Of a stretch of 64,000 nt of DNA, positions 114 to 64,000 are shown piece after piece. Each line of letters starts with the position of its first letter. Within the stretch, counting starts at the first letter, position 1. Source of the stretch: the human T2T-CHM13v2.0 reference genome, Homo sapiens; NCBI RefSeq assembly GCF_009914755.1, contig NC_060933.1. The stretch is one strand, 5' to 3'. The notes under the pieces were generated by a model. That model was not told the origin of the DNA and did no database searches. It saw nothing but the letters and a program-made list of their open reading frames with translations. Both the position numbers and the translations under genes were made by a program.

Positions 114-128
114 GGAATCTTCCGGAAT
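114..128. promoter_or_regulatory. Canonical heat-shock element match GGAATCTTCCGGAAT (first of 25 copies seen in the left arm)
   Basis: gGAAt-cTTCc-gGAAt fits nGAAnnTTCnnGAAn exactly. Left-arm starts: 114, 1742, 2117, 3441, 4287, 5809, 6617, 8053, 13995, 15779, 17113, 18031, 20597, 20737, 24406, 26350, 27198, 30927, 31665, 32503, 34002, 34730, 38290, 40317, 40697. The motif match is direct; function is inferred. Confidence 0.55.
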
Positions 129-1550
129 GGAATGGAATGGAATGGAATGAAAGGCAATGGATTCAACTCGATTGCAATGGAATGGAATAGAATGAAATGG
201 AATGGAATGGAATGGAATGGAATTGAATGGAATGGAAGGCCTTCAAACCGAATGGAATGGAAAGGAATGGAATCAACACGAGGGGAAAGGTATGGAATGG
301 AAAGGAATGGAATGGAATGGAATGGTACGGAATAGAACGGAATGGAACGAACTGGAATGGAATGGAATGGAATGGAACGGAATGGAATGGAATGGAATGG
401 AATGGAATGGAATCGTTCCGAGTGGAATAGGAGGGAATGTATTCGACTGGAATGGAAAGGAATGGAATCAACCAGAGTCGAATGGAAGGGAATGGAATGG
501 AATGGAAACTAATAGAATGGAATCAACCCGAGTGGAATGGAATGGAAAGGACTGGAATGGAATGGAATGGAATGGAATGGAATCAACTCGATTGTAATGG
601 AATGGAATGGAATGGAATGGAATGGAATGCAATGGAATGGAATGGAATGGAATTAACCCGAATACAATAGAATGGAATGGAATGGAACGGAATGGAGTGG
701 AATGGAATGGAATCAACCCGACTGCAGGGGAATGGAATGGAATGAAATGCAATGGAATGGAGTCATCCGGAATGGAATGGAATGGAATGGAATGGAATGC
801 AAAGCAATGGAATCAACTCGATTGGAATGGAATGGAATGGAATGGAAAGGAATACATTGGAATCAACTCGAGTGGAATGGAATGGAAAGGACTGGAATGG
901 AGTGGAATGGAATGGAATGGAATCAACCCGAGTGCAGGGGAATGGAATGGAATGGAATGCAATGGAATGGAATCATCCGGAATGGAATGGAATGGAATGG
1001 AATGGAATGGAATGGAATGGAATCAACTCGATTTCAATGGAATGGAATGGAATAGAATGGAATGGAATTAACACGAAAGAATGGAATGGAATGGAATGGA
1101 ATGGAATGGAATGGAAAAGAAAGGAATGGAATGGAATGGAATGGAATCAACCCAAGTGCAGGGGAATGGAATGCAATGGAATTCAATGGAATGGAATAAT
1201 CCGGAATGGAATGGAATGGAATGGAATGGAATGGAATCAACCCGAGTGCAATGGAATGGAGAGGAATGGAATGGAATGGAATGCAAACTACACGAATGGA
1301 ATGGAATGTAATGGAGTGTAAGGGAATTGAATATAATGAATCCGAATGGAATGGAATGGAATGGAATGGAAAGGAATGGAATGGAATGGAATGGAATGGA
1401 ATGCAATGCCATGGAATCAACCCGAGTGCAATCAAATGGAATCGAATGAAATGGAATGCAATGGAATGGATTCAACTTGAATGGAATGGAAAGAATGGAA
1501 TCATAACGAGTGGAATGGCATGGTTTGGAATGGAATGGAATGGAATCAAC

Positions 1551-61100: not shown

Positions 61101-64000
61101 TCCATTCCATTACATTCCGTTCCATTCCATTCCATTACATTCGGATTGATTCTATTCAATTCCCTTACACTCCATTACATTCCATTCAATTCGGGTAGTT
61201 TCCATTCCATTCCATTCCATTCCTCTCCATTCCATTGCACTCGGGTTGATTCCATTCCATTGCATTCCATTCCATTCCATTCAATTCCATTCCGTTCCAT
61301 TCCATTCCATTACAATCGAGTTGATTCCATTCCATTGCATTCTATTCCAGTCCTTTCCATTCCATTCCACTCGGGTTGATTCCATTCTATTAGTTTCCAT
61401 TCCATTCCATTCCCTTCCATTCCACTCTTGTTGATTCCATTCCTTTCCATTCCACTCGAATACATTCCCTCCTATTCCACTCGGAACGATTCCATTCCAT
61501 TCCATTCCATTCCATTCCATTCCATTGCATTGCATTCCATTCCATTCCATTCCATTCCATTTCGTTCCATTCCATTCTATTCCGTATCATTCCATTGCAT
61601 TCCATTCCATTCCATTCCATTCCATTCCATTCCATTCCATTCCATTCCATTGTACTCGGGTTGATTCCATTCCATTGCATTCCATTCCATTCCATTCCAT
61701 TCCATTCCATTCCATTCCATTCCATTCCGTTCCGTTCCATTACATTCGGATTGATTCTTTTCAACTCCCTTACTCTCCATTACATTCCATTCCATTCGGA
61801 TTGTTCCATTCCATTCCATTCCATTCCACTCCATTCCATTGCACTCGGGTTGATTCCATTCCATTCAATTCCATTCCATTCCGGATGATTCCATTCCATT
61901 GCATTCCGTTCCATTACATTCCCCTGCACTAGGGTTGATTCCATTCCATTCCATTCTATTCCATTCGATTCCATTCCATTCCCCTGCACTCGCGTTGATT
62001 CCATTCCATTCCATTCCATTCCATTCCATTACATTCCATTCCATTCCTTTCCATTCCAGTCCTTTCCATTCCATTCCACTCAGGTTGATTCCATTCTATT
62101 AGTTTCCAATGCATTCCATTCCCTTCCATTCCACTCTGGTTGATTCCATTCCTTTCCATTCCACTCGAATACATTCCCTCCTATTCCACTCGGAACGATT
62201 CCATTCCATTCCATTCCATTCCATTCCGTTCCATTCCATTCCACTCGTGTTGATTCCATTCCTTTCCATTCCATTTGGTTTGAAGGCATTCCATTCCATT
62301 CCATTCCATTCCATTCCATTCCATTCCATTCCATTCCATTCCATTTCATTGTACTCGGGTTGATTCCATTCCATTGCATTCCATTCCATTCCATTCCATT
62401 GCATTCCGTTGCATTCCATTCCATTACATTCGGATTGATTCTATTCAACTCCTTACTCTCCATTACATTCCATTCCATTCGGGTTGTTCCATTCCATTCC
62501 ATTCCATTCCATTCCACTCCATTCCATTGCACTCGGGTTGATTCCATTCCATTCCATTCCATTCCATTCCATACCATTCCGGATGATTCCATTCCATTGC
62601 ATTCCGTTCCATTACATTCCCCTGCACTCGCGTTGATTCCATTCCCTTCCATTCCATTCCATTCAATTCCATTCCATTACAATTCGTTCCATTCCATTCT
62701 ATTCCGTACCATTCCATTCCATTCCATTCCATTCCATTCCCTTCCATTCCGGAAGATTCCATTCCATTGCATCCCATTCCATTCCATTCCCCTGCACTCG
62801 CATTGATTCCATTCCATTCCATTCTATTCCATTCCATTCCCTTCCTTTCCGTTCCACTCCATTCCATTCCATTCCATTCCATTCCATTCCATTCCATTCC
62901 ATTCCGTTCCGTTCCATTCCATTCCATTCCATTCTATTCGGGTTAATTCCATTCCATTCCATTCGATTGCAATCGAGTTGATTCCATTCCATTCCATTCC
63001 ATTCCATTCCATTCCTTTCCATTCCTTTCCATTCCATTACGGATGATTCCATTCCATTGCATTCCATTCCATTCCATTCCCCTATACTCGGGTTGATTCC
63101 ATTCCATTCCATTCCAATCCATGCCATTCCACTCGTGTTGATTCCATTCTTTCCATTCCATTCAAGTTGAATCCATTCCATTGCATTCCATTCCATTCGA
63201 TTCCATTCGATTGCACTCGGGTTGATTCCATTCCATTGCATTCCATTCCATTCCATTCCATTCCATTCCATTCCGTTCCATTCCATTTCATTACATTCAG
63301 ATTGATTCTATTCAATTCCCTTACACTCCATTATATTCCAATCCATTCTGGTTGTCTCCATTCCATTCCATTCCATTTCACTCCATTCCATTGCACTCGG
63401 GTTGATTCCATTCCATTCCATTCCATTGCATTCCATTCCAATCCATTCCGGATGATTCCATTCCATTGCATTCCATTCCAATCCATTCCCCTGCACTCGG
63501 GTTGATTCCATTCCATTCCATTCCATTTCATTCCGTTCCATTCCGTTCCATTCCATTCGGATTGATTCTATTCAATTCCCTTACACTCCATTACATTCCA
63601 TTCCATTCGGGTAGTTTCCATTCCATTCCATTCCATTCCTCTCCATTCCATTGCACTCGGGTTGATTCCATTCCATTCCATTGCATTCCATTCCATTCCA
63701 TTCCATTCCATTCCATTCCATTCCGTTCAATTCCTTTACATTCGGATTGATTCTGTTCAAGTCCCTTACTCTCCATTACATTCCATTCCATTCGGGTTGT
63801 TCCATTCCAATCCATTCCATTCCACTCCATTCCATTGCGCTCGGGTTGATTCCATTCCATTCCATTCCATTCCATTCCATTCCATTCCATTCCATTCCGG
63901 ATGATTCCATTCCATTGCATTCCGTTCCATTACATTCCCCTGCACTCGGGTTGATTCCATTCCATTCCATTCCATTCCATTCGATTCCATTCCATTCCAA

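What the first reader, a model, noticed from the sequence alone, without database searches (positions are those of the whole stretch)
114..62760. A dispersed array of 36 perfect heat-shock elements encoded by one satellite module
Seen: the module GGAATCTTCCGGAAT parses exactly as nGAAn-nTTCn-nGAAn. I count 25 copies in the left arm and 11 in the right arm (starts listed under features), nearly always ~45 bp after CAACGCGAGTGCAGGGG on the G-rich strand. A more common sibling, GGAATCATCCGGAAT, differs by one base and breaks the TTC unit, so the array holds matched HSE and non-HSE alleles. The variant copies I noticed (3441 CTTCA, 4287 TGAAT, 8053 GGAAA, 20597 and 20737 TTTCC, 26350 AGAAT, 48476 AGAAG on +) change only the 'n' positions. 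Established: HSF1 trimers bind inverted nGAAn repeats, and HSF1 binds SatIII DNA on heat shock, driving G-rich SatIII lncRNA and nuclear stress bodies; plain (GGAAT)n supplies only head-to-tail GAA units. Inference: these modules are discrete high-affinity HSF1 nucleation or promoter sites within a sea of low-affinity pentamers, with a CpG (CCGG) inside the element that could make it methylation-tunable. Caveats: I found copies partly by the motif itself, so the apparent conservation has ascertainment bias, and I cannot confirm that this is unreported.
Basis: partly seen in the sequence, partly recalled or inferred. Interest (0 to 1): 0.8.

Follow-up and report, generated by a model that had tools for sequence, protein, structure and literature searches.

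The report
Heat-shock elements in chr9 satellite III
One sub-repeat of the giant chromosome 9 satellite carries a textbook binding site for the heat-shock factor HSF1, copied thousands of times, which probably helps explain why HSF1 gathers there in stressed cells, an idea already in print in general form.

Summary
The window has 36 perfect nGAAn-nTTCn-nGAAn sites, 25 on + and 11 on -. Of these, 29 are the exact 15-mer, against 61 copies of the one-base sibling. 33 of 36 lie exactly 45 nt after the CAACGCGAGTGCAGGGG anchor.

They are not 36 independent events. All sit in one ~60-nt sub-repeat type, marked by a linked G in the anchor and usually lying ~270 bp after another module type. The 15-mer occurs 12,700 times in the genome, throughout the chr9 HSat3 array. 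That is about 17% of all perfect GAAnnTTCnnGAA sites in the genome. The sibling is a paralogous module subtype, not an allele, and it keeps all three contact guanines.

It loses significance once amplified variants are collapsed. Genome-wide counts agree in direction but are confounded.

HSF1 binding was not testable here. Print already describes HSEs scattered in SatIII, for chrY and unpublished for 9q12, and HSF1 ChIP signal that tracks motif density. I found no description of this exact module.

The parts
69..128 (+). Example of the full type-A sub-repeat: 17-nt anchor with G at position 5, 28-nt spacer, then the 15-nt HSE
   Evidence: this exact 60-mer occurs 5,228 times in the genome
114..128 (+). 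perfect HSE, exact 15-mer
1742..1756 (+). perfect HSE, exact 15-mer
2117..2131 (+). perfect HSE, exact 15-mer
3441..3455 (+). perfect HSE core, n variant C10>A (CTTCA); puts T before GAA on the other strand
4287..4301 (+). perfect HSE core, n variant G11>T (CCTGAA); anchor at 43 nt
5809..5823 (+). perfect HSE, exact 15-mer
6617..6631 (+). perfect HSE, exact 15-mer
8053..8067 (+). perfect HSE core, n variant T5>A (GGAAA)
13995..14009 (+). perfect HSE, exact 15-mer
15779..15793 (+). perfect HSE, exact 15-mer
17113..17127 (+). perfect HSE, exact 15-mer
18031..18045 (+). perfect HSE, exact 15-mer
20597..20611 (+). perfect HSE core, n variant C6>T (TTTCC); shares the variant with the copy 140 bp on
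20737..20751 (+). perfect HSE core, n variant C6>T (TTTCC); local duplicate of 20597
24406..24420 (+). perfect HSE, exact 15-mer
26350..26364 (+). perfect HSE core, n variant G1>A (AGAAT)
27198..27212 (+). perfect HSE, exact 15-mer
30927..30941 (+). perfect HSE, exact 15-mer; spacer 10 nt longer (anchor at 55 nt)
31665..31679 (+). perfect HSE, exact 15-mer
32503..32517 (+). perfect HSE, exact 15-mer
34002..34016 (+). perfect HSE, exact 15-mer
34730..34744 (+). perfect HSE, exact 15-mer
38290..38304 (+). perfect HSE, exact 15-mer
40317..40331 (+). perfect HSE, exact 15-mer
40697..40711 (+). perfect HSE, exact 15-mer
42480..42500 (.). strand switch of the satellite: G-rich strand is + to the left and - to the right
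   Evidence: no special mirror symmetry of the arms
43406..43420 (-). perfect HSE, exact 15-mer
44810..44824 (-). perfect HSE, exact 15-mer
45674..45688 (-). perfect HSE, exact 15-mer
48476..48490 (-). perfect HSE core, n variant C10>T (CTTCTGG), a CpG transition
49021..49035 (-). perfect HSE, exact 15-mer
49874..49888 (-). perfect HSE, exact 15-mer
50967..50981 (-). perfect HSE, exact 15-mer; the one copy without the usual anchor
54061..54075 (-). perfect HSE, exact 15-mer
57365..57379 (-). perfect HSE, exact 15-mer; the one copy behind a C-type anchor
60754..60768 (-). perfect HSE, exact 15-mer
62746..62760 (-). perfect HSE, exact 15-mer

Best explanation
The sites are canonical three-unit heat-shock elements. 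They arose when a single A>T change turned the common satellite module ...GGAAT-CATCC-GGAAT... into ...GGAAT-CTTCC-GGAAT... in one sub-repeat type of the chromosome 9 HSat3 (satellite III) array. Ordinary satellite amplification then carried that sub-repeat, with its linked upstream G, to about 12,700 copies, roughly one every 2 kb along the whole ~26 Mb array. Shown here: the sequence, the linkage, the copy number and the array-wide spread. Inferred: on heat shock, HSF1 trimers bind these sites best. The more numerous near-HSE siblings and the head-to-tail GGAAT runs act as weaker sites. The sheer number of good sites concentrates HSF1 at 9q12, where it drives G-rich SatIII transcription and nuclear stress bodies. 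The sites exist in such numbers because of amplification. Selection on each copy is not needed.
For: Perfect HSEs: 36 in the window, all in one module. Linkage: 551 modules were collected by their upstream 45 nt alone, from the window plus 20 fetched stretches (18 inside the array). The G-anchor/plain-spacer class (137) carries the exact T element in 100. Seven of the 137 lack an intact HSE: 3 have the A-type centre and 4 have other core changes. In contrast, the T element occurs in 2 of 155, 1 of 122, 0 of 50 and 0 of 29 modules of the four sibling classes. Fixed context: the type-A module is preceded by type C in 76 of 132 cases, mostly 245-295 bp upstream. Copy number: 12,700 exact 15-mers in the genome, none listed before C9:49.756 Mb (searches show the listing runs in contig order). 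Spread: present in 17 of 18 in-array 10-kb samples, 97 copies in 180 kb, which extrapolates to about 14,000 over the array. Share: 12,700 of 76,189 perfect GAANNTTCNNGAA sites in the genome. Ancestry: chr5 HSat3 has the paralogous ...CATCCCGAAT module, with only sporadic CTTCC variants. Literature: HSF1 binds 9q12 SatIII in vivo and in vitro (PMC2173303, section read). Perfect HSEs interspersed in chrY SatIII are bound by HSF1 (PMC7889540, passages). HSF1 ChIP-seq follows HSF1 motif density within HSat3 arrays (bioRxiv 10.1101/2024.10.22.616524, passages). The pyrimidine-purine step between TTC and GAA is the preferred one (PMC8379338, passages).
Against: No binding or transcription data could be analysed here, so any preference of HSF1 for the T form over the A form is untested. 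The A form keeps all three guanine contacts. HSF1 DNA-binding domains have been crystallised on head-to-tail SatIII repeats (cited in PMC8379338). The advantage of the T form may therefore be small against roughly 30,000 or more sibling modules and millions of pentamers. Jolly et al. 2002 shifted the chr9 clone pHuR98 only at higher HSF1 amounts than a consensus HSE, and suggested secondary structure may matter. I did not check whether that clone holds the T module. Franklin et al. describe HSF1 motifs as confined to sub-regions of arrays. My 18 samples show a roughly even spread on chr9 (0-10 per 10 kb), so their figure may show another array or another scale.
Confidence: 0.6

Rival explanations
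1. Neutral passenger. The A>T change has no special effect. HSF1 is drawn to 9q12 by the mass of near-HSE siblings and head-to-tail GGAAT units, or by DNA structure or chromatin state. The T module is common only because its sub-repeat happened to be amplified.
For: The T element is tightly linked to one upstream haplotype and to a preferred neighbour, as expected for hitch-hiking. [quoted passage not shown] HSF1/2 domains bind head-to-tail SatIII repeats in crystals (cited). The core-sparing signal disappears when variants are counted once each (p 0.51). Amplified sibling subtypes, such as CATGC recurring about every 14 kb, show that copy counts reflect amplification.
Against: By copies, core positions vary less in T modules than in siblings, both in the sample and genome-wide (core/n per-site ratio 0.42 vs 0.69). 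Published ChIP signal follows HSF1 motif density rather than the even pentamer density.
Confidence: 0.28
2. The HSE core is actively maintained. Array-level selection, or amplification biased towards HSF1-bound and transcribed units, keeps the GAA/TTC/GAA bases intact while n positions drift.
For: Anchor-defined set: core 7 of 1,125 sites (0.62%) vs n 20 of 750 (2.67%) in 125 type-A modules. In 299 siblings the figures are 45 of 2,691 (1.67%) vs 32 of 1,794 (1.78%). Fisher p = 0.0066 for the contrast. Genome-wide, T-centre modules show 0.98% (outer core) and 1.33% (centre core) vs 2.56% (n) per site. A-centre modules show 2.47%, 3.39% and 3.93%.
Against: Copies are not independent. Collapsing to one event per locus gives p = 0.054, and to kinds of change p = 0.51. 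7 of the 20 n changes are at the CpG, and 11 more are two amplified variants (positions 5 and 6). GAA positions of ordinary pentamers beside the HSE are also quieter than their n positions (1.24% vs 2.13%). The T lineage is probably younger than the sibling families. The sibling n count includes chr5 and chr1 paralogues. Selection on one copy among about 12,700 should be negligible (inference).
Confidence: 0.15
3. The T form matters as an ETS-family site, not an HSE. Read on the other strand, the module holds CCGGAAG, the core of class I ETS motifs, whereas the sibling reads CCGGATG. The CpG lies inside that core. The ETS consensus and its methyl-sensitivity are recalled, not from a call.
For: The sequence itself. 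The same single base that completes the HSE also turns GGAT into GGAA.
Against: Franklin et al. report that only one ETS-type motif (ETV5-FOXO1) is strongly enriched in HSat3, and list no ETS factor among the validated binders (passages). No ETS factor is known to me at stress bodies. Nothing was tested here.
Confidence: 0.07

Closest known systems
Perfect HSEs interspersed in chromosome Y satellite III (DYZ1, Yq12), Penin et al. 2021, PMC7889540 (passages read)
   Same: Canonical HSEs embedded at intervals in a GGAAT-based satellite. They are proposed, and supported by ChIP, as the HSF1 binding sites that seed nuclear stress bodies. The density is of the same order: four in 3,564 bp there, one per ~1.4-1.7 kb (median spacing) here.
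   Different: A different chromosome and HSat3 subfamily, and a different repeat unit. I could not compare the sequences of the Y elements. Here the HSE is traced to a single base change in one sub-repeat type, with genome-wide counts.
HSF1 binding to 9q12 satellite III (Jolly et al. 2002, PMC2173303); 'putative HSEs over stretches of SATIII' at 9q12 (Vourc'h et al. 2022, PMC9032817, unpublished observation there)
   Same: The same locus and the same proposed factor. The review states that putative HSEs exist at 9q12 and that the number of sites is unknown.
   Different: Jolly et al. judged that the nGAAn units in clone pHuR98 were organised unlike a canonical HSE. The module here is canonical. 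Neither paper gives its sequence, context or copy number, in the sections and passages I read.
HSF1 motif maps on T2T HSat3 arrays (Franklin et al., bioRxiv 10.1101/2024.10.22.616524, passages and one methods section read)
   Same: JASPAR HSF1 motifs were scanned over HSat3 in T2T-CHM13, and heat-shock HSF1 ChIP-seq was enriched where motif density is high. That scan would have scored this module.
   Different: Reported at the level of arrays and sub-regions. No module sequence, linkage or single-base origin appears in the text I saw.
Classical SatIII formula (GGAAT)n CAAC(C/A)CGAGT (Valgardsdottir et al. 2008, PMC2241877, passage read)
   Same: The anchor is a variant of that 'terminator'. 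The 10-mer CATCCGGAAT/CTTCCGGAAT is in phase with the pentamers and resembles a diverged terminator (my inference).
   Different: The G at anchor position 5 and the CTTCC centre are specific to one sub-repeat type.

Membership tests
Canonical heat-shock element (HSE) | At least three contiguous, alternately inverted nGAAn units | tested here: met
   36 of 36 sites match GAANNTTCNNGAA. The next units on both sides are direct GGAAT repeats, so the element is exactly three units long.
Canonical heat-shock element (HSE) | Pyrimidine-purine dinucleotide between TTC and the following GAA, and no T directly before a GAA triplet (PMC8379338) | tested here: met
   The consensus has C-G at the junction, and G precedes each GAA on its own strand. 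Exceptions: 3441 (C10>A) and 4287 (G11>T) place a T before a GAA.
Canonical heat-shock element (HSE) | Bound by trimeric HSF1 with higher affinity than imperfect or head-to-tail sites | not testable with these tools
   No read-level ChIP data or binding assay is available. Published ChIP tracks motif density only at coarse scale.
Canonical heat-shock element (HSE) | Confers heat-inducible transcription on neighbouring DNA | not testable with these tools
   No 5'-end mapping of SatIII RNA was found in the papers read.
Human satellite III / HSat3, chromosome 9 array | (GGAAT)n runs punctuated by CAAC(C/A)CGAGT-type terminators, strongly strand-asymmetric | tested here: met
   The formula is quoted from PMC2241877. 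The subfamily label HSat3B5 is recalled and comes from no call.
Human satellite III / HSat3, chromosome 9 array | Module specific to the chr9 array | tested here: inconclusive
   No exact 15-mer is listed on contigs 1-8, and the first is at C9:49.756 Mb. The density in 18 samples extrapolates to roughly the whole genome count. Contigs after C9 could not be listed.
ETS-family binding site | CCGGAAG core (consensus recalled) | tested here: met
   The reverse complement of the 15-mer holds CCGGAAG, and the sibling holds CCGGATG. This is a sequence match only; binding was not tested.
Element under purifying selection | Fewer substitutions at functional (core) than at free (n) positions, beyond what matched non-functional copies show | tested here: inconclusive
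   The direction is met by copy counts, but the result is not robust when identical-by-descent variants are collapsed (p 0.054 and 0.51).

The most novel reading that the evidence does not exclude
One A>T change in one sub-repeat, amplified to about 12,700 copies, made the chromosome 9 array the main HSF1 sink of the human nucleus. It now holds about a sixth of all perfect HSEs in the genome. On this reading, the number of T modules a person carries sets how much HSF1 is titrated and how much SatIII RNA is made on heat shock. The relative sparing of the core reflects array-level selection, or preferential amplification of HSF1-bound, transcribed units.
Probability: 0.15. Interest if true: 0.75.

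Novelty: new member of a known kind. Interest (0 to 1): 0.42.

Why it matters
It has been unclear since 2002 what exactly HSF1 recognises at 9q12. The original paper found the nGAAn arrangement in its chr9 clone non-canonical. A 2022 review still calls the number of sites unknown.

A defined 15-mer now exists, with a defined one-base sibling in the same flanks. It is present about 12,700 times (the 25-mer forms: 11,214 vs 17,603). That turns the question into a simple k-mer comparison in existing heat-shock HSF1 ChIP, CUT&RUN or DiMeLo reads, and into a two-oligo binding assay.

It also gives a countable quantity, T-module copy number, that could be compared between people, cell lines and apes with respect to stress-body formation. 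If the T form shows no advantage, the finding reduces to an ordinary amplified satellite variant.

Tried and rejected
1. Anchor-conditioned genome-wide counts with free core or n positions, using 60-place patterns, were not accepted. I used 25-place patterns conditioned on the centre instead. These cannot separate upstream haplotypes, and they pick up chr5 and chr1 paralogues.

2. A larger sample of the array (60 more 10-kb stretches) could not be fetched. The anchor-defined test therefore rests on 244 kb: 125 type-A and 299 sibling modules.

3. A finer module map with typed reference modules was not run. The neighbour analysis uses the haplotype classes, so terminator types outside that 45-nt pattern are not placed.

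4. Mirror symmetry at the strand switch: the local alignment score of the two arms (559 for 1 kb, 1,089 for 2 kb) lies within the range of the controls (372-603 and 774-1,209). It is not a palindrome.

6. Literature on CpG methylation and HSF1 binding: the listing showed nothing relevant, so the 'methylation-tunable' idea stays untested.

7. Text searches for the exact 15-mer found 0 papers. Searches for its 10-mers on either strand found 221 papers. The 15 listed were all primers or unrelated constructs, and the other 206 were not examined.

8. Considered and rejected: a STAT-type palindrome, because TTC and GAA are 2 nt apart here, not 3-4 (recalled consensus).
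Full report
WHAT IS THERE. The window is human satellite III (HSat3): runs of GGAAT broken by CAAC...-type terminators. The G-rich strand is + up to about 42,480 and - from about 42,500.
- GAANNTTCNNGAA matches 36 times, 25 on + and 11 on -. Dinucleotide shuffles give 2.45 +/- 1.49, at most 7.
- 29 of the 36 are the exact 15-mer GGAATCTTCCGGAAT.
That is a consequence of finding them by the motif.
- The one-base sibling GGAATCATCCGGAAT occurs 61 times.
- 33 of the 36 HSEs lie exactly 45 nt after the 17-nt anchor with at most one mismatch. One lies at 43 nt, one at 55 nt, and one has a different terminator.
- No perfect HSE occurs anywhere else in the 64 kb.

ONE SUB-REPEAT TYPE, NOT 36 EVENTS. 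I collected modules by their upstream 45 nt alone, leaving four diagnostic sites free. The sources were the window plus 20 fetched 10-kb stretches of the same chromosome, 18 of them inside the array. This gave 551 modules, which fall into haplotype classes.
- Class with G at anchor position 5 and a plain spacer (137 modules): 100 carry the exact T element and most of the rest carry its n variants. Seven lack an intact HSE: 3 have the A-type centre and 4 have other core changes, one of them a deletion.
- The four sibling classes carry the T element in 2 of 155, 1 of 122, 0 of 50 and 0 of 29.
- Two small classes with other anchor bases carry it in 4 of 15 and 3 of 3.

So the T is in near-complete linkage with a G about 50 nt upstream. 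The 'HSE' and 'non-HSE' forms are different sub-repeat types at different places, not alleles of one site. The type-A module also has a preferred neighbour: type C precedes it in 76 of 132 cases, mostly 245-295 bp upstream. This fits membership in a loose higher-order unit. Within the window, 30 of 31 upstream-defined type-A modules have the HSE at offset 45, and the 31st has it 10 nt further on.

SCALE.
- The exact 15-mer occurs 12,700 times in the assembly, 6,460 forward and 6,240 reverse.
- The whole 60-nt module occurs exactly 5,228 times.
- Listings run in contig order, and the first exact copy is at C9:49.756 Mb. There is therefore none on contigs 1-8.
- In 18 in-array samples taken every 1.5 Mb, the 15-mer is present in 17, at 0-10 per 10 kb and 97 in all.
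- Extrapolated over about 26.5 Mb, that gives roughly 14,000. Essentially all copies can be accounted for by an even spread along the chr9 array. Contigs after C9 could not be listed.
- The genome holds 76,189 perfect GAANNTTCNNGAA sites, against 43,994 for the backwards control. This one 15-mer supplies about 17% of them.
- Median spacing in the window is 1,385 bp in the left arm and 1,698 bp in the right arm.

ORIGIN. The chr5 HSat3 array has a paralogous module...GGAAT-CATCC-CGAAT, behind a different terminator. CTTCC variants there are only sporadic: 4 CTTCCCGAAT rows are listed, against more than 90 CATCCCGAAT rows, and the fetched stretch has 3 vs 1. I infer that CATCC is the older state and that the T form was amplified specifically on chr9. 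Both 10-mers are in phase with the pentamers and look like diverged copies of the classical terminator (inference).

Anchor-defined set:
| Set | Modules | Core | n positions |
|---|---|---|---|
| Type A | 125 alignable | 7 of 1,125 sites (0.62%) | 20 of 750 (2.67%) |
| Siblings | 299 | 45 of 2,691 (1.67%) | 32 of 1,794 (1.78%) |

The direction is as predicted, and the contrast gives p = 0.0066 by copies. But the copies are related by descent.
- With one event per locus and strand, p = 0.054. By kinds of change, p = 0.51.
- Seven of the 20 n changes are at the CpG.
- Eleven more are two variants that have themselves been amplified.
- In the three ordinary pentamers just downstream of the HSE, GAA positions are also quieter than the others (1.24% vs 2.13%).

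Genome-wide 25-mer counts (per-site percentages are relative to the exact count):
| Count | T centre | A centre |
|---|---|---|
| Exact 25-mer | 11,214 | 17,603 |
| Extra copies, four outer n positions free | 1,147 | 2,767 |
| Extra copies, six outer core positions free | 661 | 2,613 (after removing 9,794 exact GTAAT-type copies) |
| Extra copies, two centre core positions free | 298 | 1,194 |
| Per site, n | 2.56% | 3.93% |
| Per site, outer core | 0.98% | 2.47% |
| Per site, centre core | 1.33% | 3.39% |
| Core/n ratio | 0.42 | 0.69 |

The direction again fits. The caveats are serious.
- The A counts include chr5 and chr1 paralogues.
- The A counts include visibly amplified subtypes, for example CATGC recurring about every 14 kb.
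- The T lineage is probably younger than the sibling families.

I call the test inconclusive. Selection on one copy among thousands should in any case be negligible (inference).

HOW IT LIKELY WORKS. The element meets the sequence definition of a canonical HSE. The CG step at its TTC/GAA junction is of the preferred pyrimidine-purine kind (PMC8379338, passages). The same paper says that the guanine is the most conserved base and the main contact, and it models a T before GAA as unfavourable. Two consequences follow.
- The sibling CATCC keeps all three guanine contacts and alters only the third base of the middle triplet. It is a near-HSE rather than a null control.

My best reading (0.6) is a hierarchy of sites. 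T modules are the best sites, siblings are weaker, and head-to-tail pentamers are weakest. HSF1 domains have been crystallised on such head-to-tail repeats (cited). On this reading the number of T modules contributes to the concentration of HSF1 at 9q12.

WHAT IS KNOWN.
- Jolly et al. 2002 (PMC2173303, section 8 read) showed HSF1 binding to chr9 SatIII. They judged its nGAAn arrangement non-canonical.
- Penin et al. 2021 (PMC7889540, passages) found four perfect HSEs in the 3,564-bp chrY SatIII unit, and HSF1 ChIP enrichment there.
- Vourc'h et al. 2022 (PMC9032817, passages) mention putative HSEs at 9q12 as an unpublished observation and call the number of sites unknown.
- Ninomiya and Hirose 2023 (PMC10505914, passage) speak of HSE-like sequences scattered in HSat3.
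- Franklin et al. (bioRxiv 10.1101/2024.10.22.616524, passages and section 13) scanned JASPAR motifs over T2T HSat3. They report HSF1 motifs in sub-regions of arrays, with heat-shock ChIP-seq enriched there.
- Two 2026 papers on HSATIII (PMC13634412 and bioRxiv 10.64898/2026.02.12.705659, passages) do not describe the site.
- The exact 15-mer appears in 0 papers of the searched library. Its 10-mers appear only as unrelated primers among the 15 of 221 papers listed.

The kind is therefore known. The chr9 module, its linkage, its single-base origin and its counts appear to be undescribed in what I could search.

VERDICT. The feature is real and correctly observed, and it is a plausible HSF1 site. 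The count of 36 reflects amplification, not conservation. The sibling is not a clean negative. The general idea is already in print. The value lies in a sharply defined and cheap test. Interest 0.42; a new member of a known kind.

Noticed in passing
window 42,480-42,500: The satellite switches strand here: G-rich on + to the left, on - to the right. The junction falls between two facing CAAC...GAGTGC terminators. The arms are no more alike in mirror image than control segments are, so this is a plain inversion junction and not a palindrome.
   Followed up: partly
L021 (contig 5, 49,720,001-49,730,000) and rows: The chr5 HSat3 array carries a paralogous module, GGAAT-CATCC-CGAAT, behind a CAAACAGAGT terminator. 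Rare CTTCC variants of it are themselves perfect HSEs. It looks like an intermediate between the classical terminator and the chr9 module.
   Followed up: partly
whole genome: Perfect GAANNTTCNNGAA sites are strand-asymmetric genome-wide: 45,122 forward vs 31,067 reverse. The chr9 module is balanced (6,460 vs 6,240). Some other strand-biased repeat must therefore supply about 14,000 extra sites. The chrY SatIII unit with four HSEs (PMC7889540) is a candidate, not tested.
   Followed up: no
window 20,597-20,751: Two HSE modules 140 bp apart share the same C6>T variant (TTTCC). This is a local tandem duplication of a variant copy, and it shows directly that variant counts are not independent events.
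   Followed up: partly
contig 9 near 49.82-49.86 Mb, rows: Module positions, including a CATGC variant of the sibling, recur with a period of about 14 kb over tens of kilobases. This indicates recent tandem duplication of ~14-kb blocks inside the array.
   Followed up: no
window, e.g. 2,977-3,050 and 5,380-5,450: A further module type shares the C-type anchor and spacer but continues with GGATTCAACTTGAAT instead of the CATCC element. There are 25 such modules among the 155 of that class.
   Followed up: no
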